Positions 16,348 to 47,500 of a DNA stretch of 64,000 bases are shown here, in pieces. The notes under the pieces were generated by a model. The model worked only from the letters and a program-made list of their open reading frames with translations, searched no databases and was not told the origin of the DNA. This DNA comes from a virus. Each line of letters starts with the position of its first letter. The stretch's first letter is position 1. The stretch spans positions 1 through 64,000 of IMG/VR virus record IMGVR_UViG_3300042557_001040; one strand, written 5' to 3'. Made by a program: the position numbers and the translations under genes.

Positions 16348-17118
16348 TTAAGGGTTATAAAATACAGCCCAACCTTTTATTACAAGACTAGCTTGAGCTG
16401 CTAAACCTAGACCAGATGGTGTAGAATTAGTGCCTCCACTAAGATCAACATAACCATTGCTAAGACCATTGTCATCAAGTGTAATTAGAACATGATTTAC
16501 AGAAGCTTCTGTTAAATTATTACTATTCAGATCAACATAATCCAAGCCCACACAACCTGTAATGTTTATATGTTGCAATCCTGTATCATCATTATATAAC
16601 TGTGTCATTGTGGTGATTCCTGTAAAATCTAAAGATGTGAATCCCATATTATCACCATCCCATTCATTAATACCTTCTAATTTTTGAAGATTGCTTATTG
16701 CTACAGCTGTACCAGGACCAAACCCAATTTCAAAATCGTCAATTTGAGAAGGATTGTTTATACATAAATAAACAGTGTGAGGGATTAAACCTTCCAAGTC
16801 ATATTCAAAGTCATAATTACTTCCATCAGCAGGAAGAGAAAAACTTTCACTTTCTGTAGATGTCCAATGAACAGATCCTGTTAAATTAGGTCCTCCATTT
16901 ACAGTTTGTAATGTAAAACCATAAAGTCCACTTACTTCATCTGCAATAGCTTGTATAGCTATGCAACATGAATACTCTTTAATAGTGTTACAACATAAGT
17001 CTGCTGGAACCTCTTTCCATGTAGATGGTCCACTAGGGAATGATCCACTAGTAAGAATCATACTACCAGGTACAATCTTGCCTTGCTTGCTGTACCTTAC
17101 AAATGCTCTTTTTTTCAT
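16348..17118 (-). CDS. Putative virion accessory protein, shared N-terminal module plus LRR-like C-terminus
   Basis: N-terminus paralogous to 17178-17627; LxxLxxxxNxL repeats in the C-terminal half. Confidence 0.7.
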   Translation of the reverse strand: MKKRAFVRYSKQGKIVPGSMILTSGSFPSGPSTWKEVPADLCCNTIKEYSCCIAIQAIADEVSGLYGFTLQTVNGGPNLTGSVHWTSTESESFSLPADGSNYDFEYDLEGLIPHTVYLCINNPSQIDDFEIGFGPGTAVAISNLQKLEGINEWDGDNMGFTSLDFTGITTMTQLYNDDTGLQHINITGCVGLDYVDLNSNNLTEASVNHVLITLDDNGLSNGYVDLSGGTNSTPSGLGLAAQASLVIKGWAVFYNP

Positions 17119-17177
17119 TTTATTTATATTTTAAAGGTCAAAATCTAAATGCTCTATTTTTTCCCATTATTTTTTAT

Positions 17178-17627
17178 TTACATATCTCCAACCGAAAAGA
17201 TAAAATCATTTATATCTTCACAAAGAAGATTTCTAATTTGAGGATTTAAATAAAGTGTTAAAATAGAACCAGAAACTTCAAAATAACCCCAAAAAGAAAA
17301 ATTAGTATTGAAGTAATCGGCAACTTCTTGATAACTATTTAATGAAGGACCTGTAAAAAAACTCGTAAACTCTTTGCTACCATCTCCTACACATTGTATT
17401 TGAATAAACAAGTTAGTACTTGATGGTAAAACAGACATTGTAAGAGCTAAATTATAACTAAGAGGGAATTCTCTACTAGTGTTAGGATTTATTTCACAAC
17501 AATAGTTTGTAGATACTTCTTTCCATAATGCAGTTTTATCAGGATAGCCACCGTTAGTAGTTACTACTAAACTTCCAGGAACAAGTTGTCCTTTTTTAGT
17601 ATATCTTACAAATCCTCTTTTTTTCAT
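17178..17627 (-). CDS. Putative virion accessory protein, paralogous N-terminal module
   Basis: MKKRGFVRYTKKGQLVPGSLVVT...WKEV...CC. Confidence 0.7.
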   Translation of the reverse strand: MKKRGFVRYTKKGQLVPGSLVVTTNGGYPDKTALWKEVSTNYCCEINPNTSREFPLSYNLALTMSVLPSSTNLFIQIQCVGDGSKEFTSFFTGPSLNSYQEVADYFNTNFSFWGYFEVSGSILTLYLNPQIRNLLCEDINDFIFSVGDM

Positions 17628-17629
17628 TT

Positions 17630-17692
17630 CTAATCTTTTATTAAATGTATTGAAAATCCAAAATGATTTACAAAAGCCTTTTGTTTTGACAT
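17630..17692 (-). pseudogene. Possible truncated remnant of a third AFVRY-family paralog
   Basis: MSKQKAFVNHFGFSIHLIKD*; the first 8 aa resemble MKKRAFV. Confidence 0.3.
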
Positions 17693-17693
17693 C

Positions 17694-17765
17694 TCATTTT
17701 TTAGGTTTTGAAGGCTTGGATGGTTTACCACATCCACAACCATAAACAGCTGTACTCTTTATCAT
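17694..17765 (-). CDS. 23-aa Cys/Lys micro-protein
   Basis: MIKSTAVYGCGCGKPSKPSKPKK*; packed between co-oriented genes. Confidence 0.45.
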   Translation of the reverse strand: MIKSTAVYGCGCGKPSKPSKPKK

Positions 17766-17778
17766 ATATTTAGATTTT

Positions 17779-18408
17779 TTAATTGTACACTCTTATTTCT
17801 AAAGATGCATTTAATAAAGAACTATCTACTAAGTTGTCTTGTCTTGTTGCATATAACGGTTTACTAAACTGGTTATTATTATTAAAATAAGTCACTAATA
17901 CATCTTCTCTACCACTTGTTCCACTTACTATAACAATAAATGTTTTATCTGTAGTGAACAATTCAGAAGAATTAACTGAATACTGTCCAACATTATCATA
18001 AGTAAACCAAATATTTCCAATAGTATTTTCTAACACTGTTGCTACTGGGGCTCCTCCATTAAATTCTAGAATTCCAGTGTCCCAATTATTAGGAGTTGTT
18101 CCTGTAGCAACAAAATATGTTCCCACATTATTATTTGGTGCTCCTACATTTGTAAAATCAGCTATAGCACTATTGTTATTATAAATAAAATAAGTAACTC
18201 CTATTGTTAAATCTCCACCAGAAATACTACCTAGACTATTTCCACCATTCTGTGTTAATAAAGCTGTATATACTTTATATGTAGATGACGAATTATTATT
18301 AATCTGGTCTACCAGCTGATTTACATGTGCTATACGAGCTAATGCGTTATCTCCCACTGTTTTACTTAAGTAGGGATCAGGACTTTTGGGTTTAATTTTT
18401 TTTATCAT
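17779..18408 (-). CDS. Putative structural/tail-associated protein
   Basis: YKVYTALLTQ...PVATVLENTIG...LEIRVYN, a pattern I associate with Bacteroidota phage structural regions. Confidence 0.6.
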   Translation of the reverse strand: MIKKIKPKSPDPYLSKTVGDNALARIAHVNQLVDQINNNSSSTYKVYTALLTQNGGNSLGSISGGDLTIGVTYFIYNNNSAIADFTNVGAPNNNVGTYFVATGTTPNNWDTGILEFNGGAPVATVLENTIGNIWFTYDNVGQYSVNSSELFTTDKTFIVIVSGTSGREDVLVTYFNNNNQFSKPLYATRQDNLVDSSLLNASLEIRVYN

Positions 18409-18827
18409 ATTTTTGCAAGTTGAAAGTGCATACCATCTCTACGTCTCCATGTACCACCCCATTCAAATCCTGCGTCTGTAAAACACTTTACAAACCCAGG
18501 GGAAAGTCTTGGTCTACAACCAAAGCAGTTCCATGCTGCATTTACATCAACAGCTATACCCCAGCTGTGGAGACTCATTGTAAGACCAAATCTCTTCCTG
18601 CGAATGTTAAAACAACCATCCCATGTCTTCAGCTCTTTTACAAAACCTCTTGTAATAAGATTTTGTAATGCTGCACTGAGAGGTTTAATTAAGTCTTTAT
18701 TACAGAATATTCTTTTAGGAATGACTCCCACTTCTAAATTAGCAGGGACATCCCATGTAGTCATCCACCTATTCTTAAGTGAAGGAGCACCGTATTTCTT
18801 ATATGCTTGCTTACTGGTTACCATCAT
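18405..18827 (-). CDS. Endolysin, M15-family Zn peptidase
   Basis: SLHSWGIAVD and WGG.W...DGMHFQL motifs. Confidence 0.9.
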   Translation of the reverse strand: MMVTSKQAYKKYGAPSLKNRWMTTWDVPANLEVGVIPKRIFCNKDLIKPLSAALQNLITRGFVKELKTWDGCFNIRRKRFGLTMSLHSWGIAVDVNAAWNCFGCRPRLSPGFVKCFTDAGFEWGGTWRRRDGMHFQLAKI

Positions 18828-19248: not shown

Positions 19249-19629
19249 TTAGTAATTGTATCTATTTTTTAAGAAGCTATCTGCTTGATCTACAGAAAAT
19301 CTTTTAGAAGCATCAATTTTATCATTGTAATATTCTCTTACAATAACCTTTGTCTTCTTTATATCTTTAATCTTCAGATCAATATCATTAATCCTGTTAT
19401 TATACTCTTGTGTAACACTATCTAATGTATTCTGTTTCTTTACAAGCTCTTGATTCACCAGATTAAGACTATCAATTCTTTGCTTAATCACTTCATTATC
19501 AACACGTTTCTCTCTTTTAGTGAAAATAAACAGAAGTAGATATATAACAAGCAACACCCCAGCAACCACGCCTAATATGGTGAGCAGATTGCTTTTAGGT
19601 TTAGGAAAGTAAATATTTGGTGTTTCCAT
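19249..19629 (-). CDS. Inner-membrane spanin-like protein
   Basis: One N-terminal TM followed by coiled coil; lysis cassette context. Confidence 0.5.
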   Translation of the reverse strand: METPNIYFPKPKSNLLTILGVVAGVLLVIYLLLFIFTKREKRVDNEVIKQRIDSLNLVNQELVKKQNTLDSVTQEYNNRINDIDLKIKDIKKTKVIVREYYNDKIDASKRFSVDQADSFLKNRYNY

Positions 19630-19632
19630 AAA

Positions 19633-19815
19633 TTATGAATGAACTGCTTTTACAACATCTCCTGTTCTATAGACATCTCCATTTTTTAAACCACCTGCTT
19701 TTGCTGCTGCATTATTTGCATATTCAGGAAGATTATTAAATTTTCCAAGAAGTCTTTTTACTTTATTTGTAAGCCAGTCAAGCCTACCAAATATATCTGA
19801 AGAAATAGGGTTCAT
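19633..19815 (-). CDS. Small fibre-tip-like motif protein
   Basis: LPEYANNAAAKAGGLKNGDVYRTG motif, typical of phage fibre C-termini. Confidence 0.6.
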   Translation of the reverse strand: MNPISSDIFGRLDWLTNKVKRLLGKFNNLPEYANNAAAKAGGLKNGDVYRTGDVVKAVHS

Positions 19816-19816
19816 A

Positions 19817-20119
19817 TTAACTTATTTTAGGGACATATTTCTTTACATCATATATATCCTCATGTTTAAAGTATAGTTTATCCATATCTGGATTAACATA
19901 AGTGATTTTTCTAGGAGCAGAAGGCCCATAAAGCATCCTTTCTAGGTTTTCTATCTTGGTTTTGTCTATACTAGACTGAGATAATAGTGCCTTTACATCT
20001 GACCTAAGCTCAGATACATCTCGCCATATCATCATGGCAAGTATGGTTACAAGGGTTGGAAACAAATACGCCTTAATAGACGTAAGAATGGCAGAGTTTT
20101 TTTCGAATTCTCTTGTCAT
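19817..20119 (-). CDS. Single-TM protein, holin/antiholin candidate
   Basis: TM helix YLFPTLVTILAMMIW plus short coiled coil; first gene of the lysis unit. Confidence 0.55.
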   Translation of the reverse strand: MTREFEKNSAILTSIKAYLFPTLVTILAMMIWRDVSELRSDVKALLSQSSIDKTKIENLERMLYGPSAPRKITYVNPDMDKLYFKHEDIYDVKKYVPKIS

Positions 20120-20166
20120 TTCAAAACCAATTTTATACCTTTACAAACATTTTTTTCAACAAAAGA

Positions 20167-20284
20167 CTGCTTAACCGAGCTAAAGTCCTGATTTACAATG
20201 AGTTATATTGCAGCATCAAGAATAAATGCAGGTTAATTAGAACTTCTTAACCCAGGACTTGTAAGAGTATAGCTCGGTTAGCAG
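20167..20284 (-). ncRNA. Candidate structured RNA (extended stem plus four-way junction)
   Basis: Nested inverted repeats of 15 bp and 8 bp enclosing three hairpins; two G-U wobbles form only on the - strand. Confidence 0.6.
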
Positions 20285-20294
20285 GTTCTATTCT

Positions 20295-20310
20295 ACAATA
20301 TAATATACTA
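20295..20310 (-). promoter_or_regulatory. Putative late promoter (GTATATTATATT)
   Basis: Shared motif immediately upstream of the structured RNA and lysis/structural unit. Confidence 0.5.
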
Positions 20311-20355
20311 AATTTTTGACAAACCTCCATCTATAATCCTTAAATTTTATCAATT

Positions 20356-20760
20356 ATGACCCTCAATCAAGAAGAAGTGTTGGCAGTTGAAGACTTTAAA
20401 CGGGACTTCAGTGCAAAATTTGGGTATGTCCCACTAATAACTATAGAAAAAACACCAGAAAAAGTAATGCCTTTAAGTGAGCTTGAAGAATTTTTTAAGC
20501 CTTTTATTGCCAGAAAGTATGATAAAAAGATCACACTAAGCTCCAATCTTAGAGATAGAGAGCTTGTTGAGTATAAGATTATTTATTCCATGATGGCAAA
20601 AGAACTAGGATACACCCTCACAGCAATAGCAAAACATCTTAAAAAAGATCACACAACAATCGTTCATTATAATAAGACTTTTAGAAATCTTATGGCAACA
20701 TCAGACTTATTTAATGAAAAGTATAACGAAGTGGTTGTTTATATAAAATCATCTAAATGA
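20356..20760 (+). CDS. DnaA C-terminal (domain IV)-like HTH protein
   Basis: LGYTLTAIAKHLKKDHTTIVH matches the Bac_DnaA_C signature. Confidence 0.75.
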   Translation: MTLNQEEVLAVEDFKRDFSAKFGYVPLITIEKTPEKVMPLSELEEFFKPFIARKYDKKITLSSNLRDRELVEYKIIYSMMAKELGYTLTAIAKHLKKDHTTIVHYNKTFRNLMATSDLFNEKYNEVVVYIKSSK

Positions 20761-21338
20761 TGGAAAGCTTAAAAGTATGGAACGTTGCAGTGAAATATAA
20801 TATGAGTCCAAATCAGTTATATTTTCTTGATTGCTGCAGATATAAAATTAAACCCTCCAAATTAATTAATGAGGAGGCTGAAAAGATGATATGTATACAA
20901 AAAGGCTTTATTGACCTTGATTGCCATCTTTCTATTACAGCAACTCAAATGTTGGCTGAATATGACACCTTCCTTGATAAAACAAAGAAGAAGGTGGCTA
21001 AAGAAGTGCTTGGAGAAAACTTTATGGAAAAGGTAAACACCTATAGACAACTCTTTCCAAAAATAAGATTTCCTTCTGGTTCACTAGCCAGACAATCAAC
21101 CAATGAACTAAAGGACAAGTTTATATGGTTCTTTAAAACATTCCCAGAATATGATTGGGAATTAGTGTTTGACGCAACAGACTATTATTTATATTTAAAA
21201 AAACAAGTTGATTACCAATATGCCGTAACAAGTAGCTATTTTATAAAAAAGACAGAAACATTAACTAAAGAAACAAAATCCATTCTTGCTGATTATTGTC
21301 AGCAACTATTGGATGATCCCAATTTATTATCTTCTTAA
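20757..21338 (+). CDS. Hypothetical protein, possible replication initiator/helicase loader
   Basis: YRQLFP...YFIKK pattern; located upstream of DnaB. Confidence 0.55.
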   Translation: MMESLKVWNVAVKYNMSPNQLYFLDCCRYKIKPSKLINEEAEKMICIQKGFIDLDCHLSITATQMLAEYDTFLDKTKKKVAKEVLGENFMEKVNTYRQLFPKIRFPSGSLARQSTNELKDKFIWFFKTFPEYDWELVFDATDYYLYLKKQVDYQYAVTSSYFIKKTETLTKETKSILADYCQQLLDDPNLLSS

Positions 21339-21345
21339 AAAGTTT

Positions 21346-21534
21346 ATGGAAAAAAAGATTCACATGTTACTGATTTCCATATTGTTATCAGTTACAGCTT
21401 GGCTATTCATTGATTCATTTATAGTGAGTGTTGGTTTTTTTAGATATTTAATTATTGAACTCTTCTTACTAGGAATGAACAAACTAAGTATTTACATTTT
21501 TAAAAAATATCAACTTTATGACAAAGATGAATGA
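21346..21534 (+). CDS. Small two-TM membrane protein
   Basis: Hydrophobic 62-aa ORF from ATG 21346. Confidence 0.6.
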   Translation: MEKKIHMLLISILLSVTAWLFIDSFIVSVGFFRYLIIELFLLGMNKLSIYIFKKYQLYDKDE

Positions 21535-21724
21535 AGAACACATCAAAATACTATACGATGTGTTTACAGTGTCTAGCACTTCAACACAAGATTTCCGTTG
21601 TTTAAATTATGAAATGTTTGAACTGCTGGCTAACAAAATTTATGAAATTGGATATTTACAAGGAAATTTAGAAGGACTGGGTAGATCTAAAGAAATTCTT
21701 GAAGAGCTTATTGATAAAAAATAA
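21518..21724 (+). CDS. Hypothetical protein
   Basis: Short ORF in the operon. Confidence 0.6.
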   Translation: MTKMNEEHIKILYDVFTVSSTSTQDFRCLNYEMFELLANKIYEIGYLQGNLEGLGRSKEILEELIDKK

Positions 21725-21727
21725 TAA

Positions 21728-22777
21728 ATGTCTATAGGAATTAAACATCTTTTTGGAGGTAAATTGTATTCTGAAATACTTTCAGAAGGCTTAGTGTATA
21801 TAGAAGACAGGATGAGAGGTAGAGTTAAGTCTTTTAAAACTCCTTGGGTGGGGTTGAACAAGGCTGGCGTAGGAGGATTGGAATGGGGTTCAATGATAAC
21901 CATAGGTGCAAGACCTGGGTCAGGTAAGACATTGATTGTCAGCCAAATACTCAGGGAATGCAGAACACTCAATCCTTTACAACACTTTAACATCCTTGAA
22001 TTTCAGTTTGAGATGGGTGCAAAGCAGGTTTCAGCTAGAGATTTTGTAGCTAAAACTGCACTTGATTATAACACTGTTTTAAGTACGGATGGACAGCTTG
22101 ATGATTATCATTTTCAAATGATGAAGCAATATCAAGAAGACTGTAAAAATCTTGAACAAAGAGGTGTTCTAAGAGTGCAAGTAAATAATGCTCTCACCCA
22201 TCAAGAGATAAGAGAAACAATTATTCATTATTACAAGGAGCTTGGTGGTAAGCCTCTGGTTGTCACTGTGGACCATAGCTGGCTCATCAAGAAGGGAAAA
22301 GATGAAAAAGAAAAAATAAGCACTCTATACAATGCTGTAGAAATGTTTATGCAGCTTAAAAATCAGCTCCCCATCATTGTGATTATGATTACACAGCTTA
22401 ACAGAACTATTGAAGAACCTTCTAGAAGAGTGCAAGGCTCTATAGCAAACTATCCCACCAGCTCAGATATATTTGGTGGTGATGCTTTGATGCAAGGTTC
22501 TGACATGGTTGTGGTTTTAAGCAGACCTTCTATATTAAATATAGGAGTGTATGGTCCAAGTGGCTATCTTGTAAAGTCAGATGATATCTTTATGCACCTG
22601 ATCAAGGTGAGAAATGGTGCAGACGATGTAAACATTCTTTACATGAAAGCTGAGTTTAAAAACCAAAGAATGATAGAAGTTTCTGAACCCACTGCCTCTA
22701 ATCCTGGAGGTATGGGATTCACCAGAAGATCACAACGAACCACTACATCTACAGACATAGATGTTAGTGATATTTAA
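21728..22777 (+). CDS. dnaB: Replicative DnaB-like (SF4) helicase
   Basis: GARPGSGKT, FEM, VDH, TQLNR, SDMVV, KVRNG motifs. Confidence 0.92.
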   Translation: MSIGIKHLFGGKLYSEILSEGLVYIEDRMRGRVKSFKTPWVGLNKAGVGGLEWGSMITIGARPGSGKTLIVSQILRECRTLNPLQHFNILEFQFEMGAKQVSARDFVAKTALDYNTVLSTDGQLDDYHFQMMKQYQEDCKNLEQRGVLRVQVNNALTHQEIRETIIHYYKELGGKPLVVTVDHSWLIKKGKDEKEKISTLYNAVEMFMQLKNQLPIIVIMITQLNRTIEEPSRRVQGSIANYPTSSDIFGGDALMQGSDMVVVLSRPSILNIGVYGPSGYLVKSDDIFMHLIKVRNGADDVNILYMKAEFKNQRMIEVSEPTASNPGGMGFTRRSQRTTTSTDIDVSDI

Positions 22778-38580: not shown

Positions 38581-41500
38581 TTAGGGTTGTGCGCATCTAT
38601 CATTTAAAGGATTATCATCATCTAATTTTGTATCATCTGATTTGATACTACCAAATCCCATCAATCTTTCAAACTCTTTTCTTTTTTCCATATCCGTTAT
38701 GCCAAGTTTTTCTTCTTTTGACCCAACTGCTGGTACATTTTTACTAGCTTGAGATGGTTTTTCATTATCACCCATTCCTAATGCTGCAAGAAATCTATTT
38801 CTTAAAGCGGTATCCGTAACACCTAATTCTTTAGCTTTTTCTTCAGTAAGGTTTTCATCAACAATAGGCGTTTCTCCTAATGTTTCATTTCCTTTTATTT
38901 GAGGAGCTGATGATGTAATGTCATATCCTAACATATAAACTAATTGTCCTGGGGTTTTTACAGTTTTTTTCGCATCATCTGGTATAGCATCCCAGACATC
39001 ACCTACAAATTTAAAGGATTTACTAGCGGTATCAAAAGTAAAAGTAATGCCTTCTCTAGCGAGTATTTCTTTTGGCGTACCAGTCACATTTTTAGTAGCA
39101 GCGGTTGCTATTTCTTTTTTTTGTGTAACAGATGTTTCTCCTGGTTTAACAAATCCTCTGTTAATCATCCACATCTCCTCTTTTTCAGGATCGCTAAAAG
39201 CTCTTTCATAATAAGGATTATAAGAAGAAGGATTGGTTGTAAGCTTTCTATATCTAGGAAGTTTAGCAGTATCAGGAATTGGGTCAAAAACCTCTCCTGC
39301 CTTAAAAGTTTTTGAAGAACCCTTTCTTTCTATTTTTTGGTATACAGCTTTTACACCAGAAGCAACAGTTTCCCCAGGTTGAATCATTCTTTTAGGGGAA
39401 CCTTTAGGTTGTTTTTGTGCTTTAGTAACCGATTTAAGAACAAAGAAAGTGTTTTCAAAATATTTTTTTCCTTCTGGTTTTATACTTTGTTTTATAATAT
39501 ATGGAAAAACAACCTCACCTTTTTTATTAGTATAAAAACCTTTAGCCCTTAAAGAATCCATATTTTTAGCAAATCTTTTCTTTTCATCAGGTGAATACTT
39601 AAAACTATCTGCCTTGGCTTTAGCTGCCTCTTCTTCTTTTTTAATCCATTCTTTTTTTCCTTCTTCATCTAATTGAGAAAACTTTTCAGTTTCTTCAGCC
39701 AACATGGTATAATAATCAGCATCATCCATCCATGTTATTTCAGATTCTTCTTCTTCAGTGAAAGCCTTTTGTTTTTCTTTTATACGAGCACCATTGAAAA
39801 TATCAATTTTTATTTTATCACCGTCTATTACAACAGATTTGGGTTCAAAGCCATCTACATTTTTATTTCCTACATCTTTGAACTTAGGTTCAGCAAATAG
39901 AGTCATACTTCTAACATAATATCCATTTCCAACATGCCTTGTATATATATGCATAAATTCATTAAACAAATCATTAGCTGTTAACCCAAATACTTTTTTA
40001 TACTCTTCATCTATATTTTTTGTTGTGACCATGTTTAATTTCAAAACATCATTAGCTATTCCTGTACTTTGCATCAAATCTGTAAACATAAAGTTAGGAA
40101 TAAACTTAATAAAACTATTACTTCTAAACTGACCACCATCTTTTACCAACAGATAATTAAAAAGAGCATTAGCCATGTCTCTACCGTTTCTACCATTGCC
40201 ATCAAAATCAATATCAGATTGATAGATTTCTATAAAACTATCTCTTAATTTTTCTATTTGATATTCATTAAGTTTAGCCCAAGTGTTAGATTCTAGTTTA
40301 TTAAATCCATCTTTATTTTTAGGATTGAGTCCAGCCTCTCCTTTAGCATTAACTATGGTGGTAGATATTACATTTAAAAATCTTTTGGCAATATAGTTAT
40401 TTGGAAGTTTTTGTCTAATCGTTCTAATAACATCCACTATATCAGAAAACTTGTCTCCTTTTGCTATAGCACCTTCATCATATATAAGGGCATTGGTCAT
40501 TGTAGATAAAGTTCCTGCTCGCCCTCTATCAGCAAGAAATTTTCTATATGCTTTTATAGAAAGATAAGAAATCAAATCTCTTTTCAAATCTACATTAAAT
40601 TTATCTTTAAGAGATGCTCTTACACTCAAGTTATCTTTTACAATATTTTCAATACGCTTAAACACACTTGTTCTTTCCAAGAACATGCTTTTGCTGAGAT
40701 CATTAATTTGATCAGCTATTTTAATCCATTTAGAAATATAGTGAGATTGTTTAGATTCATCATAACCCATGAATACTTGACGTAAATCAAATGGTGGAGG
40801 AGTTTTTCTACCTTCAGGTATAAATTTCTCAAAAGCATCATCATTTTGATTTCTTAAACCCAGTTTTTCTATTTTGTTATTAATACCATCATAGTCTTCC
40901 CAAGATGTACCAAGTCCTTTAACAAGCTTAAGTACTTGAGCAACATCAGAAAAGTATTTAGTTTGATTTGATATCCCTATAAAATCTTCTAATACAGAAG
41001 CCTGATATATAGCACTACTCCCATTATTTTTAATATTGGATACCATTATATCATCTGTAAGATCTTCTTTTACATAGTCATCTCCAGCTAATTTCTTATA
41101 TTTTTCAAAAAGTTTTTTAGCCACTTGAGACTTGTATATTTTACTTTCCTCATTTGTTTTAATATTATTTGAAGCTATTTTGGTTAGTTCAAAATACTCT
41201 CTTACAGCAGGTTGTAACATTAAAAGAATAGAAGATTTTAAAGGAACACCTTGAGCTACCATATTAGAAACATAACCAAGAGCCTCCATGTTAAGACCAA
41301 GTCTAGCAGCCAAACGTTCTTTAGCATTATCTGTCATAGCTGATACTAAAGTAGATATAATGTTTGTTATACGATCTTCACCATCATATTTACCAGTGGC
41401 TGCATTATAACTATTAGAATGTGAATAACTATCAAATGTGTGACCATTTATTTTAATCTTATACATTTTAACCTTCTTGCCCTTAGCATCTTTAAAAGTG

Positions 41501-44500
41501 TCTCTAAGGTTAATCTTAAAGTTATTCAGTATGGCATAAGTAAGCATTGAGTTAACAGCCGCACCAATGTTTCTAGAACCTTCTTTATTATTTTTAAAAG
41601 CTTTGTATTTACCTATAATAGAATCAACATCAACTCCTCCTTCTGTAAGAATATTTTCTATTTCTGTTGGTAATACTTTTTGTCCATTTTCATTTTCTGT
41701 AGATAATAAATCAATAAGATTACCAGCTACATTTGGATCTAATAAATTGGTAAGAGCAGTTAAGGACGCAACTTCAAATGCTATAGATCTGCTTCCACCT
41801 GAAATAACATGTTCATTAGTAAGCATCAATAACTTCTGCTCTAAAATTCTATTATTAAGAACACCATTATTAAGTTCTTTTTTACTTTTGGCATAATCTA
41901 AAACATTAGATGGAAGTTTTAAAGACCCAAGGGCCTGAGCTATAAGTTTTTGTTCTACACCGTCTAACTTTTTTACTAAATCTTTAAATTCATTTACCCA
42001 TTTTTTACCCATATCAATAATAGCTTGACGTTCGTCCGCTGTTATTTTTCCACCAAGTTCTTCACTAAAATAAACACTTTCAAATATTCTAAACTCATCT
42101 AAATCTTTTGTAAGTTTTTTATACTCTTTATATTTTTTAGATAGTTCTTGATATATAGGATTTGTTTCTTTTAATTCTTGAAGAACATCTCTAAATGCCT
42201 TGTTATTATTTGCATTCCAGCGTACATATTCTTCAAATTTTCCTTCTTTAGAAGTTTCTGTTCCATAAGGAAAACGTTGACCATCTTTTACATATGTATC
42301 ATATATGTGCATATACAGTTTATCAATATCAAAGTCAGCACCAGATATTTCTATGAGTTCATGGGGAAAGATAGCAGTGGAACCATAATATGCTGGCATA
42401 AATCCAACAAGTCTAAGGGCTACAAAGCTATGTTTTGCCTGTGATGGGATACGTACACCAAACATTTTAGCTATGTGATCAGGAATAGGTTCACCTGGCT
42501 TTAAGTTAAAGTACTCAGCATAGTGAGCTGGCATAATAAACTCTGTATATCTACCTATAATTTTACCATTCTTATCATATTCTGGTACGTTATGTCTAAG
42601 ATCATCTACATAGATGTCTCCTTTTTTCATTTGCTCAAACTTGCGATCAATACTATTATTCCATCTTTTAGCATTCTTTATATATCTATTTGGATTTTGT
42701 TTAATAACTCTTTCATCTACCACTGTTCCAATAGGATTACCCTCTTCATCATAACGTCCAGTAAATATTTTAACTACTTGTTTACCGTAATTGGACATCA
42801 AGGCAACAGAGTGACCTGGAGTTTTTTCACTCATAACTCCTTTAGAAAAATAAGCTAAAAATAATTGAGTGTATTTGTCAAGAGTGATATTGTTGTTAAG
42901 ATTATATTTAGGTTTTCCATCTTCTCCTAAAGAAAAGAAATCAATAAGTTGACTATCTGCTCCTGTAGAACGTAATGTTTCTACAGCTCTTTTTTGAAAC
43001 TTTTGAAGCTGTGGACTTATTTTACCTTGGTCCATAGACTTTCCTAGCTCTGAATAAGCACTGTCTATATTAAAGATTTCATCTCTACTTCTTGTATAGT
43101 TATTTGTAACACGTTGGTCAACATCACTAAGATACATTTTTTTAATATCTCCAATTGTTAACTGACTACCATCTTCTTTAGTGCTTCTACCCATAAAAGT
43201 AACAGGAGTAGAATCTTCTTGTTCAGAAAGTATAATCTGTTTGGCCTGACTGGGATCTGTAATTTGTATTTTATTAGAAGGGTTAACCAACTGAAGTCTC
43301 CAATAATTTGTATCTTGCTTTACAAAATTTTCATCTTTAGCATTTTGAAATCCTAAACTATGATCAAATATATTTCTCTTAATACCCTTACTAGATTCTC
43401 TATCTCCAGCAAATACTACAGTATTATTATCTTTTTCAAACTTTTCCATTCTTTCCCTAAGTTCATGTAACTCTTCAGAACCAGGAATAGCTACCCACTT
43501 ACCATTTACTTTCATAGAAGTAAACTCTTTAGTAAGCATTACAGTGGATGTTTTAATATATTGAAGACCATCAAAATAAACAAGCTTTTTAGAGTTAAAC
43601 ATTGCTTCCATATCTTTTAACCCACCTGAACCAAAAATTTCTTTTTCAGTGAGTTCTTGACCAGCTTCTAACTTATCAAGAATTTTAGCAATTGCCGGTG
43701 TAAGTTGACCTAAACCATGAAGAGTATATCTCATACTCTTTACAGTTTGATAAGATTGGGCATCTGCTTTATTTTTTAAACCACCAGCATAGTTAGCTTT
43801 AAATTTAGGACTTGTAAAAGTAAGCATGTAACTTTTAGTAAATGCTTCTGTAATACCAAGTTCAGGAGATGTTACAACAGAATATAAACTGGGCCCACTA
43901 CCATTAGCACCTCTAGCACGTTTAATAATATCAATTTCATCTTTAAATGCTTTAGCCTCATCACCATACAGTATTTGATTAATAGATAATGTATTAATAT
44001 AATCATTTATTAATATCTGACCAAGATTATGTCTGAGATTTCCTGGTTTAATGTTTAACAAATCATTTCTTCTTTCATCTATAACATCCTTACCATTTTC
44101 TTTTTTAGTAAAGCCTATCCTTAAAAAATCATCAACAAGATTATTTTGAATTTCTTCTTCATTACCTTCTTCAGATTTACTTACTGTAACAACACCAAGG
44201 TCATTGGCAAGTTTAACAAAATCTTCAATTTGTTTTTCCCAATATTCTTTAATTCTACTATTTATCTTAGTATTTTTAGAAGCAATATCAAAAGCATCAT
44301 CTAAACTATCTTGTTCTAATTCATCAGCTAATTCTGTTCCTAGCATATTAGCCATCTTATAGAACTTTAAACCTCTTGGTTTTTTCTTATCTGTTCTTCT
44401 ACCATCACCATCTACAGCATAATGATAACCTTGTATTTCACCATCTGGATATATGCCTGATTTTATTTCAGCTCTTACTTTCTTAATACGATTAAACTCT

Positions 44501-47500
44501 CTAACTACTTCTTTATTAATAATATTAATAGCCTCTTGACTTAAACTAACCTTCCCACTTGTTGTAGAAGTAACCACCTTATTGACCGGTAAAGCAATTG
44601 TATCACCTGTATTAGAAGCTTCTATCACTCTAATAAGATGATTGCTAGTCATAAATCTATTTCCATTTTCACCCCTATGTTCCTTATTATATTGATACAA
44701 TTCTAATAAAGATATTAAAAACTCACGATCAGAAAAACTACCATAGGTGATACCTTCATTTTGATTAGCTTGAATTGTTTTATCTTCTATTAGTTCACCA
44801 GTCTCATTTTCTTTAAGAATTGAACTCTTCATTCCTTCAATTCTTTGCACTCTAAGATTTCCAAGAAGAGATTTAAAATCTTCTGAACTTAATAAATGAT
44901 TTTGCTCAAGAAAATCATCAAGCTTAATTTTATTTAATTCATCTATATCATTAAGAGAATTAATCTTGACTAAATGGAATGTAGGAAGCTGATGCGCATA
45001 CACTAATTCACCTTCAGCATTTCTATAGGATGTACCACTAACCGTTTCATCAAAAACAGCATTACCTTTAGCTAACTCATTAAGACGAGATATATTACCA
45101 CCCTCTCCTAAACTGTCTGCTTCTTCTTCACCATCTTCTTCTCCCGTAATGGGCATGTTTTCATCATTAAGGCTGTCTATATTTTTAGCAAAAGGATTTT
45201 CCAAAGCTTGTATAGACTTAACAATAGCTTTTAAACCATTTAAATCCATTGGTCCAACTTCACTATATGATTCAGCAAGTCTTCTTTGATTTTCAGTTCT
45301 GAGATCAGGTTGCTTAGATGCAGCTATAGAGAATTTAATATAAAGTGGAGATAAGGAAATACCCAAGTCTTCTTTAAGCCTATTGCTTAAATCTTGAGAA
45401 AGATCATCTAATCTTTCATCAGAAAAATATACACCAGGATCATGTGCGCTCAATAGTTCTTGAAATGATAAACTTTTTTCCTTAGCAAACTCTCTTCTTT
45501 CTTCTTCAGATTTAAGTGCTAAAACAGGAGTTTCAAACTGATGTATATAAGCATTCTGCCATTGTGTAAACTGAGTTTTAGCAGCACCCATTCTATTAGC
45601 CAACATTAATCTTGTAACCCTACCTTTATTACGAATATCTTTATTCATAAAAATATAATCCACGGTGTATTGTTGAAATCCTTTAACCACCATTTGAAAA
45701 AGAGTAGCTTGTTTAGGATTTGTAATATCAAAATCACCGGTATTTGGATCTATGACAAGACCAACTTCATCAAAGAATTTATTTAAAAACTTACCAGTTT
45801 CTGTATTATTGTCTCTTAAATAAAGCAGCCTATTTATAAATTTCTTTTGATCTGTAATATTAGCAACAGCCTTGAGAATACCACCATAAACCAAATTAGC
45901 ATTTACAGATTGTATTAGTGGTTCCCCATTTACCATTTCTGTATTTCCAAACTCATCCCTATCTATTACATAAGATGTAGATGCTATGTACTGACGTAAG
46001 AATTTAGAAAGACTACCAAATCCTCCAATAGAATGAGTTTCTTTCCAATTATCTGTAGTAACTCTAGTACCAAATTCTTCTTCTGTAGTAGTAAACTCAT
46101 CATCTTCAAGCTCCTGTTGATATCCCATTATATTTAAATGAACATCTACAGCCTCCATCAAAGTTTCCCTATTCTCTTTACGATAGAATATATTAAACTT
46201 TTGATCTAATTTATTCATATAGGCTTTAGCTTGGGCAGGATCTATATCCATCAGCTTTGTCTGTTCATCATAATAAAACTCTTTTCTAGAACCTCTAGGG
46301 TTATATAATTCTAAAAAGTCATCTATAATACCATTAAGAATTTCTTTTTTATTATACTTTCCAGTTTCAGTATTAAGTGCTCTAACATGAAACATTGAAG
46401 CTATCGTACTAGCTATCTGATCTCCTTCTTGCTGAGGAAGGTATTTGTCTATTGGTATAATATCTCCATTTTCATCATCTACATAATCTTCACCTATTTT
46501 AATAGCTTTTAATGCAGGTTCATTAATACTAAGAGCATCTGGCTTGGTAAACCTATTATCTTTGATATTAGAATTTTTATACTTACCTCTGTCTATCTCA
46601 CGGAATAAACCAGTAAGTTCATTACTTGTAAATTTTCCAAACAGTCCCTTTATGAAATCCCAAATCTTTTGAAATAAACCACGAATACCTGGAAGAATTT
46701 TTTTAGAGTCTTGATTCATTTTCCATTCATCAAACTTATCAGCCATATATTCCTCATAGTATCTATTTTCTAGCTCAGCATCTGTCATGTCCGCATAAAT
46801 AGTATGAAGCTCTCGCATTGCTTTAATTTCTGAAGCAAGTGTTTTACCTTCTTTGGCAAGTTCTTTTTTCACTTCAAGTTTTGCATATGCCAAAAACTTA
46901 TTTATTTCTTTATCAGTGAGCATTAAACGAAAAACAGCATGAAAAGCCTCATGGTATTTAAATGGACTATTCTCACCAACTTCAATACGTCCTCTCACTT
47001 GAGTTTTACCATTCTGAAGTTTTTGTAAGTAAGTTAAGAATCTACCTACAGTGATATTACCATTTTTAAGATTAGTAGCAAGTAAGTCCATATCTTCTAC
47101 AGATACAATATCACCAAGGATACGACCTACATACTTTTTAAACTGATCAATATTAACCACACTAGTGGCATCAAAGGTTGGCTTATTTACCACCTTGGGA
47201 GCCATGTTTCTATTTGAATTTCTAAGTTCATTTAGTTTAGCTTTTTCAGCGTTAATTCTATCTTTAAATAAATCAACAGCTTCATCATTAGATAATCTTA
47301 AAGCTTCACCGGATCTCATTCCAGCCTTTACTTTTTCTTCCAGTATTTTTTGAGCCTCTATTTCTCTTTCAGCCTCAAGCTTTTTTATATTATCTCTTAT
47401 TTGTTGAGCAGGGGATAATCCTGTTTCTTCAAGTTTAGTTTTTTCAACAGGAGTTTCTTCTTTTTCTTGTACAGAGGGGCTTGCCCCAATTCCCATTTCT

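What the first reader, a model, noticed from the sequence alone, without database searches (positions are those of the whole stretch)
20167..20284. Cloverleaf-on-a-stalk structured RNA at the 5' end of the lysis/structural unit
Seen on the - strand: CTGC-TAACCGAGCTA pairs with TAGCTCGGTTA-A-GCAG (15 bp, one bulge); a 9-nt one-sided bulge TACTCTTAC follows; then AAGTCCTG/CAGGACTT (8 bp) closes a four-way junction. The three hairpins are GGTTAA/TTAACC (10-nt loop), GCATT/GATGC (7-nt loop) and TGCAAT/ATTGTA (7-nt loop). Two pairs are G-U on the - strand but A-C on the + strand, which points to a - strand RNA. It begins about 10 nt after the promoter-like motif and is followed by TCTTTTGTT, 47 nt before the first lysis gene. 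It has tRNA-like topology but lacks TTC/GG/CCA hallmarks. Inference: an unannotated phage ncRNA (tRNA mimic, anticodon-nuclease decoy, packaging-type RNA) or a lysis-timing attenuator.
Basis: partly seen in the sequence, partly recalled or inferred. Interest (0 to 1): 0.8.

Follow-up and report, generated by a model that had tools for sequence, protein, structure and literature searches.

The report
Phage lysis-operon structured leader RNA
The 118-base fold between a phage promoter and the phage's cell-bursting genes is real and is kept, with matching base changes, in five other uncultured phages, so it is probably a new leader RNA whose exact job is still unknown.

Summary
The - strand of 20167-20284 folds exactly as described: a 15-bp stalk, a one-sided 9-nt bulge, an 8-bp helix and three hairpins (-43.1 kcal/mol, z = -7.0).

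It is not chance. I found five further distinct copies in uncultured phage contigs (L010, L039, L261, L258, L304). All lie at the same place, between a conserved promoter box (core TATATTATA) and a homologue of the 100-aa membrane/coiled-coil gene that opens the lysis cassette.

On the six cores, 97.7% of pair cells are standard pairs and 11 of 22 pairs carry changes on both sides. No shuffle of 500 reached this. An independent MAFFT/RNAalifold run gives the same four helices. The stalks differ in sequence but always pair. The gene-sense strand is the more stable in 6 of 6 copies.

No Rfam family matches and ARAGORN calls no tRNA in any copy, so the tRNA-mimic reading is not supported.

Most relatives carry a simple hairpin at this position, and two carry a different stalk-plus-junction module. 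Best reading: a new, dispensable, cis-acting 5' leader RNA of the lysis-operon transcript. Its mechanism (stability, processing or attenuation) is inferred. Transcription is not shown.

The parts
20293..20308 (-). Promoter box GTATATTATATTGTAG (core TATATTATA). A TTTG/TTGTCA -35/-33-like element lies upstream, at about 20317-20323.
   Evidence: Exact in the window. The core is exact upstream of the homologous gene in 41 of 41 related loci. There are 3-8 copies of GTATATTATA per genome, mostly in gene-sense orientation, against 0-1 for the reversed control. It resembles the sequences upstream of phi14:2 g070/g075/g108/g110, which the phi14:2 preprint names as middle promoters used by host RNA polymerase.
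20270..20284 (-). Stalk, 5' arm (15 nt)
   Evidence: Pairs with 20167-20182. The stalk sequence differs in all six copies but always pairs.
20261..20269 (-). One-sided 9-nt internal loop (bulge) on the 5' side
   Evidence: A 7-14-nt 5'-side-only loop, A/C/U-rich, is present in 6 of 6 copies. Strain variant SNP 20269 falls here.
20183..20260 (-). Conserved four-way-junction core: junction helix (20253-20260 with 20183-20190); hairpin 1 (20231-20252); hairpin 2 (20213-20229); hairpin 3 (20194-20212); 3-nt linker AAT (20191-20193)
   Evidence: Covariance models R1 and R2 find it at 95.1 and 89.2 bits. Covariation is shown.
20167..20182 (-). Stalk, 3' arm (16 nt, one bulged A)
20120..20166 (-). 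A/U-rich 47-nt spacer to the start codon, beginning with TCTTTTGTT
   Evidence: A comparable A/U-rich stretch of 35-70 nt precedes the ATG in the relatives.
19817..20119 (-). First gene of the unit: a 100-aa protein with an N-terminal membrane helix and a coiled coil, no Pfam or PHROG match. It is followed by a 60-aa ORF, an Rz-like spanin candidate (19249-19629), a 140-aa ORF and an endolysin-like ORF (18405-18827).
   Evidence: The family has 942 members at E <= 1e-5.
20356..20760 (+). Divergent neighbour: a 134-aa protein with a weak DnaA C-terminal helix-turn-helix match. It is the first gene of the replication-gene block.
   Evidence: Pfam Bac_DnaA_C at E 2.3e-6, 27.9 bits, below the 31.5-bit cut-off. 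A homologue was found in all 48 related loci searched.

Best explanation
The element is the 5' domain of the leader of the transcript that starts at the TATATTATA-box promoter and runs into the lysis cassette (membrane/coiled-coil gene, spanin-like and endolysin-like genes, then tail-fibre-like genes). It belongs to a previously undescribed RNA family. The family has a long stalk whose sequence is free but whose pairing is kept, a one-sided pyrimidine/A-rich internal loop, and a conserved four-way-junction cap.

Shown: the fold, its conservation with compensatory changes in six phages, its fixed position and orientation between promoter box and gene, and the preference for the gene-sense strand.

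Inferred: that it is transcribed, from the promoter class to which the box belongs. Also inferred is that it acts in cis as a static, very stable promoter-proximal module, not a switch. It occupies the place where most relatives have a simple 10-13-bp hairpin and two relatives have a different stalk-plus-junction module.

The mechanism I think most likely: the stalk caps or marks the 5' end of the lysis-operon mRNA. This would control its lifetime or processing, either by protection from 5'-end-dependent decay or as a long irregular duplex of the kind RNase III cuts. The conserved cap and the single-stranded C/U-rich patches would give a binding surface for a host or phage factor that tunes how much lysis-gene message is made or used. 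That mechanistic step is a guess: about one chance in three within the cis-leader reading.
For: - Fold: window z = -7.0; L010 z = -6.3, L039 z = -5.7.
- Copies: six distinct copies (window, L010, L039, L261, L258, L304), found through. R1 scores five of them at 99.3-39.2 bits; R2 scores all six at 92.6-64.2 bits.
- Copy number: one strong match in each of G000, G001 and G002, and none in a complete 128-kb relative, G004.
- Covariation on the six cores: 129 of 132 cells (97.7%) are standard pairs; 11 of 22 pairs have changes on both sides; 0 of 500 shuffles reach this; slid controls give 1-3 such pairs.
- Independent check: MAFFT plus RNAalifold predicts the same four helices, with 12 of 23 pairs compensatory.
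- Stalks: unrelated in sequence yet paired in 6 of 6 copies. L304's stalk is a diverged version of the window's, with three pairs turned into G-U, which pair only on the sense strand.
- Strand: sense is more stable than antisense in 6 of 6 copies (for example -47.6 vs -36.1 and -35.3 vs -19.5), with 2-9 G-U pairs per copy.
- Strain variant: a contig about 98% identical carries two changes inside the element. One turns the hairpin-3 G-U into A-U; the other lies in the bulge.
- Promoter: the core is exact upstream of the gene in 41 of 41 loci. It is multi-copy and oriented with genes. The 19-nt form has 72 viral stretches, most lying a few to about 40 nt upstream of an ORF start. It resembles the phi14:2 middle-promoter sequences.
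- Link to the promoter end: where an extra small ORF is inserted before the gene (L179, L180, L183, L188), the hairpin stays next to the box, not next to the gene. This ties the structure to the 5' end of the transcript.
Against: - No transcript evidence of any kind, and the start site is not mapped.
- Only six members. The alignment used was fitted to the model, though one search was not.
- The element is dispensable. 36 of the 41 protein-anchored related loci have neither type A nor type B, and a complete relative has none.
- The main stalk begins 14-37 nt after the box core. In L010 and L258 it would therefore not sit at the very 5' end, which weakens a pure end-protection role.
- The complementarity between the loops of hairpins 1 and 3 (AGUU/AACU) is missing in L258 and L304.
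- A U-run directly after the stalk is clear only in the window, so attenuation is not general.
- The neighbouring DnaA-HTH-like gene keeps a DNA-level role in replication in play.
- The spacer between element and ATG has a loosely conserved TTTGTAAA-like stretch. This could be a second promoter, which would make the element a separate gene.
Confidence: 0.55

Rival explanations
1. A promoter-proximal transcription attenuator or antitermination leader. The stalk would act as a terminator or pause hairpin that limits read-through into the lysis genes, or the folded RNA would modify the polymerase. The comparisons are the lambda PR' leader with tR' and the HK022 put RNA (both recalled from knowledge, not tested here).
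For: The layout of promoter, then structured leader, then lysis genes, then structural genes is the same as in lambda's late operon (recalled). In the window the stalk is followed at once by TCTTTTGTT. In a large clade of relatives the simple hairpins have U-rich 3' arms followed by A/U-rich sequence. Other genes behind the same box have short leaders without such hairpins, so the structure is special to this operon.
Against: A U-tract directly after the stalk is not conserved: L010, L261 and L304 have mixed sequence there. The genomes are about 67% A+T, so U-richness is the background. No antiterminator protein was identified. The terminator scan did not call it, though that scan allows only loops of 3-8 nt.
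Confidence: 0.17
2. A stand-alone small RNA gene of about 120-130 nt, transcribed from the box promoter and acting in trans. Examples would be a decoy or sponge for a host factor or defence nuclease, or an anti-SD-like C/U-rich regulator. The lysis gene would then be transcribed from its own promoter in the spacer.
For: The core sequence is highly conserved (77-86% mean column identity between the first three copies) while the neighbouring proteins are only 27-60% identical. That fits recognition by a conserved partner. Per the passages I read, the phi14:2 preprint notes that box-like promoters often precede tRNA genes in crAss-like phages. A loosely conserved TTTGTAAA-like motif lies in the spacer.
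Against: No clear terminator follows the element in most copies. The same slot holds a 35-nt simple hairpin in most relatives, which is an unlikely trans-acting RNA. There is no tRNA call, no Rfam match and no host homologue in the 156 genomes searched.
Confidence: 0.13
3. A DNA-level element. It would be a structured single-stranded DNA signal or protein-binding region of the replication origin, lying in the divergent region next to a DnaA-HTH-like initiator candidate.
For: The neighbouring 134-aa gene has a weak DnaA C-terminal HTH match and opens the replication block, with a helicase at 21728-22777. The element lies where gene orientation and GC skew switch. The most conserved stretch of hairpin 3 equals half of a palindromic motif widespread in Bacteroidota DNA.
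Against: Most relatives, which also need an origin, lack it. G-U pairs and the sense-strand stability bias do not fit a double-strand cruciform; they would fit ssDNA of that one strand only. No iterons were found. The orientation is fixed relative to the promoter and gene in 6 of 6 copies. The GC-skew switch simply follows gene direction.
Confidence: 0.08
4. A selfish insertion (a MITE-like or other miniature mobile element) with no function for the phage.
For: Its distribution on the gene tree is patchy, needing at least 3 gains or losses. G000's replication genes are closer to G004, which has no element, than to G001 or G002, which do. It is bounded by inverted repeats.
Against: The terminal inverted repeats (the stalk) are not conserved in sequence while the interior is, which is the reverse of what a transposase-recognised element shows. 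I saw no target-site duplication at the window's borders. There is a single copy per genome, always at the same site and in the same orientation. Compensatory changes show selection on pairing. L204/L017 holds what looks like a decayed remnant of hairpin 3 at the same site, suggesting vertical loss.
Confidence: 0.05

Closest known systems
Leader of the lambda late operon (PR' - 6S RNA - tR', read through under Q) and HK022 put RNA. Both are recalled from general knowledge and were not retrieved here.
   Same: A structured RNA is encoded directly downstream of a phage promoter, at the head of an operon that begins with lysis genes and continues into virion genes. It acts, or would act, in cis on the transcript or the polymerase.
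   Different: No sequence or Rfam relation. No conserved terminator U-tract. No Q-like protein identified. The architecture here is a four-way junction on a long stalk, not one or two simple stem-loops. The host is a Bacteroidota-type system.
5'-terminal stabiliser stem-loops of bacterial and phage mRNAs, and the irregular RNase III processing hairpins of phage T7 early mRNAs (recalled from general knowledge)
   Same: A stable helix near the 5' end of an mRNA. A long duplex of about 23-28 bp, counting stalk plus junction helix, is interrupted by an asymmetric internal loop, as in T7 RNase III sites.
   Different: Those elements are simple hairpins without a conserved multi-helix cap. In two copies the stalk starts 30 nt or more after the box. 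Neither cleavage nor stabilisation has been tested.
tRNAs, viral tRNA-like structures and bacterial Y RNA-like (YrlA) RNAs, the last being a tRNA-like module on a long stem (recalled)
   Same: Four-helix cloverleaf topology closed by a long stem. Per the passages I read, the phi14:2 preprint says box-type promoters precede tRNA genes in related phages.
   Different: ARAGORN calls none in 6 of 6 copies. No Rfam hit, tRNA and Y-RNA families included, at E <= 10 in the window and E <= 1 in the others. Hairpin 1 has 6 bp where a D arm has 3-4. There is no variable region. There are 3-4 nt between hairpin 3 and the closing helix and none between the closing helix and hairpin 1. Loop sequences and sizes vary: the hairpin-3 loop is 3-10 nt.
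Candidate structured RNAs predicted from IMG/VR intergenic regions (PMC10690425; I read passages found by term search, not the supplements)
   Same: The same kind of object (a covarying intergenic structure in uncultured phage contigs, often upstream of genes) drawn from the same kind of data.
   Different: The text I read names no motif upstream of lysis genes ('lysis', 'holin' and 'crAss' each have 0 occurrences).
Middle promoters of the crAss-like Cellulophaga phage phi14:2 (bioRxiv 10.1101/2020.03.07.982082; passages read)
   Same: This comparison is for the box, not the RNA. It has an A/T-rich -10/-7-like block of the TATATTATATT(T)GTA type, with a TTG element upstream. It is found before several genes per genome, in gene orientation.
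   Different: The published logo is a figure that I could not see. The resemblance is my own reading of the sequences upstream of g070, g075, g108 and g110. The start site here is not mapped. This phage shares only one BLAST-level hit with the 50-100 kb half of phi14:2.

Membership tests
tRNA / tRNA-like structure | Recognised by a tRNA gene finder as a cloverleaf with canonical arm sizes | tested here: not met
   ARAGORN gives 0 genes in the window and 0 in L010, L039, L261, L258 and L304.
tRNA / tRNA-like structure | Conserved T-loop and D-loop nucleotides, 7-nt anticodon loop, canonical junction linkers (2, 1, 4-5, 0 nt) | tested here: not met
   By inspection of the six folds, the linkers are 0, 1-2, 0-1 and 3-4 nt. 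The hairpin-3 loop is 3-10 nt and the hairpin-2 loop 5-7 nt. The tRNA consensus features are recalled, not retrieved.
Any Rfam 15 family (tRNA, Y RNA, riboswitches, ribozymes and phage motifs included) | Covariance-model match | tested here: not met
   No hit overlaps the element at E <= 10 in window 19500-21000, or at E <= 1 in the five other copies plus one type B locus.
Conserved structured RNA (generic) | Homologues that keep the helices through compensatory changes, beyond controls | tested here: met
   Six sequences: 11 of 22 pairs have double changes, 97.7% of cells are paired, 0 of 500 shuffles reach this, and slid controls give 1-3. Independent RNAalifold gives the same helices, 12 of 23 pairs compensatory. 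A formal R-scape test was not available.
Conserved structured RNA (generic) | Evidence of transcription | not testable with these tools
   No RNA data could be laid; only DNA contigs were available. Transcription is inferred from the promoter box.
Intrinsic terminator / attenuator | Stable hairpin followed directly by a U-tract, conserved among homologues | tested here: inconclusive
   The U-run is clear in the window (TCTTTTGTT), partial in L039 and L258, and absent directly after the stalk in L010, L261 and L304. The consensus scan did not call it, but that scan cannot see multi-branch hairpins.
Riboswitch | Conserved aptamer plus an expression platform that can switch (a short, marginally stable closing helix with an alternative pairing) | tested here: inconclusive
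   A conserved junction core is present. However, the closing helices total 23-28 bp at -43 to -50 kcal/mol and I saw no alternative pairing. No known class matches. Ligand binding is not testable here.
Miniature inverted-repeat transposable element | Conserved terminal inverted repeats, target-site duplication, several copies at different sites | tested here: not met
   The stalk sequences differ in all six copies. There is no duplication at the borders. There is one copy per genome, at one site.
Promoter class of the TATATTATA box (for the upstream part) | Several copies per genome, in gene-sense orientation, just upstream of ORFs | tested here: met
   Forward/reverse counts of GTATATTATA are 0/3 in G000, 1/4 in G001, 2/0 in G002 and 2/6 in G004, against 0-1 for the reversed control. 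The contexts are; some copies lie inside coding sequence. There are 72 viral stretches with the 19-nt form, most 0-40 nt upstream of an ATG. Activity as a promoter is not tested.

The most novel reading that the evidence does not exclude
The head of the lysis operon in this large group of uncultured, mostly freshwater, crAss-like-featured phages would be a slot for interchangeable RNA 'caps' mounted on a common stalk: a simple hairpin, the type A four-way junction, or the type B three-way junction. The type A cap would be a new RNA class that binds a host or phage factor, or a small molecule reporting cell state, to set when or how strongly the lysis genes are expressed. That would make it an RNA-based lysis timer. 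Alternatively, it would serve as a decoy against a host RNA-targeting defence.
Probability: 0.2. Interest if true: 0.7.

Novelty: new variant of a known kind. Interest (0 to 1): 0.5.

Why it matters
How phages of Bacteroidota time lysis is essentially unknown. crAss-like phages and their relatives are abundant but mostly uncultured. This work gives three things:

- A defined, covariation-supported RNA family (a covariance model and six members), tied to one promoter class and one operon.
- Evidence that the same slot holds alternative structured modules in different phages.
- A testable handle: promoter plus leader variants fused to a reporter in a Flavobacterium or Bacteroides host.

If the cap binds a factor, it would be a new riboregulator of lysis. 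If it only stabilises the mRNA, it is an ordinary though unusually ornate leader. Thousands of candidate phage RNA structures have already been catalogued, so the existence of one more is not surprising. What is specific here is its context and its modularity.

Tried and rejected
- **Known RNA families.** Rfam at permissive thresholds gave nothing on the element. ARAGORN gave nothing.
- **GenBank phages.** No DNA match to the region (the single 24-nt hit is chance). There was no tblastn match to the 100-aa protein. The group is therefore known only from metagenomes.
- **Pattern scans for more copies.**
  - 20 stretches, 2 related.
  - 2 stretches, both real.
  - 5 stretches, 2 real and 3 chance (checked).
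  -, metagenomes: 13 stretches, 1 real, which is a duplicate of L010 (checked).
  -, genome contigs, strict pattern: 0.
  - 3 stretches, all real, 1 new.
- **Host homologues.** R1 found none in 5 and then 151 Bacteroidota genomes. This is a sample, not proof of absence.
- **Protein route to more contigs.** Upstream regions of those proteins, among them P0074, which is 95% identical to L010's protein, could not be fetched.
- **Expression.** No RNA holder was listed for the stretch. Only DNA contigs could be laid.
- **Kissing-loop idea.** Loop 1 AGUU with loop 3 AACU is present in 4 of 6 copies and absent in L258 and L304, so I dropped it as a family feature.
- **Pairing with the start region or the bulge.** I looked by eye for pairing between the hairpin-2 loop or the bulge and the start-codon region. 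Nothing was conserved.
- **A protein that co-occurs only with the element.** None was found. The non-element loci were short (about 3.3 kb), so this test is weak.
- **Iterons or an origin signature.** None in 19600-21800.
- **A second promoter in the spacer.** Undecided.
- **Gene tree.** My regular expression captured 31 of the 47 loci offered, giving 25 distinct rows. L010's row was among those missed. The protein is short and many forks are unsupported.
- **Supplements.** Those of PMC10690425 (candidate RNA alignments) and of the phi14:2 preprint (promoter list) are closed. Both could bear on novelty and on the promoter call.
Full report
**Setting.** The window is the first 64 kb of an 87,969-bp virus record, estimated 72% complete, with about 33% G+C. 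It encodes giant ORFs. One, of 5,129 aa, carries a DFDID motif at residue 3879. Per the passages I read, the phi14:2 preprint describes this as the catalytic motif of the virion RNA polymerase of crAss-like phages. BLAST-level similarity to the 50-100 kb half of phi14:2 is limited to one IHF-like ORF. I therefore call the phage 'crAss-like in features' and make no taxonomic claim. Near-identical contigs occur in lake and freshwater metagenome runs that I laid.

The finding lies in the 236-bp divergent intergenic region 20120-20355.
- To the left, on the - strand, run a 100-aa membrane/coiled-coil protein, a 60-aa ORF, an Rz-like spanin candidate, a 140-aa ORF, an endolysin-like ORF and tail-fibre-like genes.
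- To the right, on the + strand, runs the replication block. It opens with a 134-aa protein that has a weak DnaA C-terminal HTH match (E 2.3e-6, below Pfam's cut-off). A DnaB-like helicase and a family-B DNA polymerase follow.

It has a 15-bp stalk with one bulged A, a 9-nt loop on the 5' side only, an 8-bp helix, and three hairpins around a four-way junction. The energy is -43.1 kcal/mol, z = -7.03, with 0 of 200 dinucleotide shuffles as stable. The + strand is weaker (-38.0, z = -4.76). The stated distances are right: 8 nt from the box and 47 nt to the ATG.

**It is conserved, with covariation.** The 100-aa protein has relatives in 16 viral loci, and in 41 loci when a profile is used. All 41 have an exact TATATTATA upstream of the gene. 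Only some carry the element.

Pattern scans and the box itself brought the total to six distinct copies: window, L010, L039, L261, L258 and L304. Every copy lies between the box and a homologue of the gene, in the same orientation.

A covariance model built from the first three cores (R1) scores L261 at 61.9 bits and L258 at 39.2 bits. The second model (R2) scores all six at 64-93 bits.

On the six aligned cores, 97.7% of 132 cells are standard pairs, and 11 of 22 pairs show changes on both sides. No shuffle of 500 reaches these values, and sliding the partners by 1-3 columns leaves 1-3 such pairs. That alignment was fitted to the model, so I repeated the test with a plain MAFFT alignment and RNAalifold. 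It predicts the same four helices, with 12 of 23 pairs compensatory.

The stalks are not alignable between copies, yet each pairs over 12-20 bp. Each also keeps a 7-14-nt loop on the 5' side only. L304's stalk is visibly a diverged version of the window's, in which three pairs have become G-U.

A strain variant about 98% identical carries two substitutions in the element. One converts the hairpin-3 G-U to A-U, the state seen in L010 and L039. The other lies in the unpaired bulge.

**Which strand, and RNA or DNA.** In 6 of 6 copies the gene-sense strand folds better than its complement. The differences range from 1.5 to 15.8 kcal/mol, with 2-9 G-U pairs per copy. The same holds for the type B module described below. 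This fits an RNA, or single-stranded DNA of that one strand. It does not fit a cruciform.

**The box is a promoter class.** GTATATTATA occurs 3, 5, 2 and 8 times in four genomes of the group, mostly on the strand of the downstream genes. The reversed control occurs 0-1 times. Most copies sit in A/T-rich intergenic DNA shortly before an ORF, although some lie within coding sequence.

The 19-nt form has 72 stretches in the viral collection, most of them 0-40 nt upstream of an ATG. The sequences upstream of phi14:2 g070, g075, g108 and g110 carry the same kind of block. The preprint says these have mapped 5' ends and are transcribed by host RNA polymerase (passages read, logo not seen).

So the element very probably lies in the first 10-40 nt onward of a transcript. 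This is an inference: the start site is unmapped, and no RNA run could be laid (see Tried and rejected).

**What sits in the same slot elsewhere.** The 42 loci (41 plus the window) give 33 distinct leaders.
- Most begin, a few nt after the box, with a simple hairpin of 10-13 bp (-5 to -15 kcal/mol). A 35-70-nt A/U-rich spacer follows.
- Three have only a 35-nt leader after the 9-nt box core.
- Four have an extra small membrane-peptide ORF inserted before the gene, with the hairpin still next to the box.
- Two (L189, L192) carry a different 120-nt module, 'type B'. It has a stalk, a 23-nt 5'-side loop and a three-way junction, at -42 and -41 kcal/mol.

L039 and type B share the outermost stalk sequence. 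This suggests a common stalk with exchanged apical modules. L204/L017 keeps only a hairpin-3-like remnant at the site.

On a tree of the 100-aa protein, type A needs at least three gains or losses. It occurs on both sides of the best-supported deep split (a short protein, with rows missing as listed under Tried and rejected). G000's replication proteins are closer to the element-free G004 than to G001 or G002. The element is therefore old and often lost or replaced, or it moves by recombination between related phages. Either way it is dispensable.

**What it is not.**
- It matches no Rfam family.
- It is not a tRNA by ARAGORN in any copy. Its linkers and loops do not fit tRNA.
- It has no homologue in the 156 Bacteroidota genomes searched.
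- It is not a MITE-like insertion: the ends vary while the interior is conserved, there is one copy per genome, and there is no target duplication.
- A riboswitch is unlikely, because the closing helices total 23-28 bp and are far too stable to switch.

**How it most likely works.** The structure is tied to the promoter end of the transcript, not to the start codon (the extra-ORF cases). It is special to this operon, since other box-driven genes have short, unstructured leaders. It is thermodynamically static.

I therefore favour a cis-acting 5' leader module. The stalk would govern the fate of the lysis-operon mRNA, through end protection or RNase III-type processing. The conserved cap, with its C/U-rich single-stranded patches in the bulge and the hairpin-2 loop, would recruit a factor. 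I put 0.55 on the cis-leader reading, and about a third of that on this particular mechanism.

The rivals:
- Attenuation or antitermination (0.17). Its support is the lambda-like layout and the U-run in the window. It is weakened by the lack of a conserved U-tract.
- A stand-alone trans-acting RNA (0.13).
- A DNA-level origin element next to the DnaA-HTH-like gene (0.08).
- A selfish insertion (0.05).

**Novelty.** I found no described family that matches, in the Rfam searches or in the paper searches. The last of these returned a catalogue of more than ten thousand predicted viral RNA structures (PMC10690425). Its supplements, which I could not open, may already list this motif.

The kind of object, a structured phage leader RNA, is known. 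This family, its four-way-junction-on-a-stalk architecture, and the interchangeable modules at the head of a lysis operon appear to be new.

Noticed in passing
L189:1327-1447 (+) and L192:1324-1445 (+); also L291: A second, unrelated structured module ('type B') occupies the same slot between the box and the membrane/coiled-coil gene. It has a stalk, a 23-nt 5'-side internal loop and a three-way junction with two hairpins. Energies are -42.3 and -40.6 kcal/mol, and the sense strand is up to 10 kcal/mol better than the antisense. Its outer stalk resembles that of L039's type A copy.
   Followed up: partly
window 20191-20209 (- strand); loci L019-L038 and L061-L168: The most conserved stretch of hairpin 3 (TATAACTNATTGTAAATCA) coincides with half of a palindromic motif, often continued as ...ATNAGTTA. 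That motif occurs in 108 genome stretches, overwhelmingly Bacteroidota, often just after tRNA genes or terminators, and in unrelated viral contigs. I do not know what the motif is. The overlap may be chance.
   Followed up: partly
window 20356-20760 (+): The divergent neighbour has a weak DnaA C-terminal HTH match (E 2.3e-6, below cut-off). It is conserved beside the box in all 48 related loci searched. It could be the replication initiator, or a regulator that reads the box.
   Followed up: partly
window 20293-20308; G000 80099-80108 and 86311-86320; 72 viral stretches L234-L303: TTTAGTATATTATATTRTA defines a promoter-like box shared by a large set of uncultured phages. It usually lies 0-40 nt upstream of an ORF, so many of these genes would have very short leaders or none.
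   Followed up: partly
window 16348-18827 (- strand): Mosaicism. The 256-aa ORF and the endolysin-like 140-aa ORF are 80% and 71% identical to G002, whereas replication proteins are 28-78% identical to G002, mostly below 60% (helicase 36%, DNA polymerase 59%), and are closer to G004. The lysis and receptor-binding cassette seems to have been exchanged between lineages.
   Followed up: no
L179, L180, L183, L188 (about 200 nt upstream of the membrane/coiled-coil gene): An extra ORF of about 60 aa, encoding a hydrophobic peptide (holin-like by appearance), is inserted between the leader hairpin and the usual first gene.
   Followed up: no
window 38581-53970 (- strand): The 5,129-aa ORF carries DFDID at residue 3879. 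This is the catalytic motif described for the phi14:2 virion RNA polymerase, and it agrees with an earlier first-stage note.
   Followed up: partly
window 20524-20536 and 20642-20654 (+): An exact 13-nt direct repeat, AAAAAGATCACAC, occurs 118 nt apart inside the DnaA-HTH-like gene. It may be chance or a binding-site pair.
   Followed up: no
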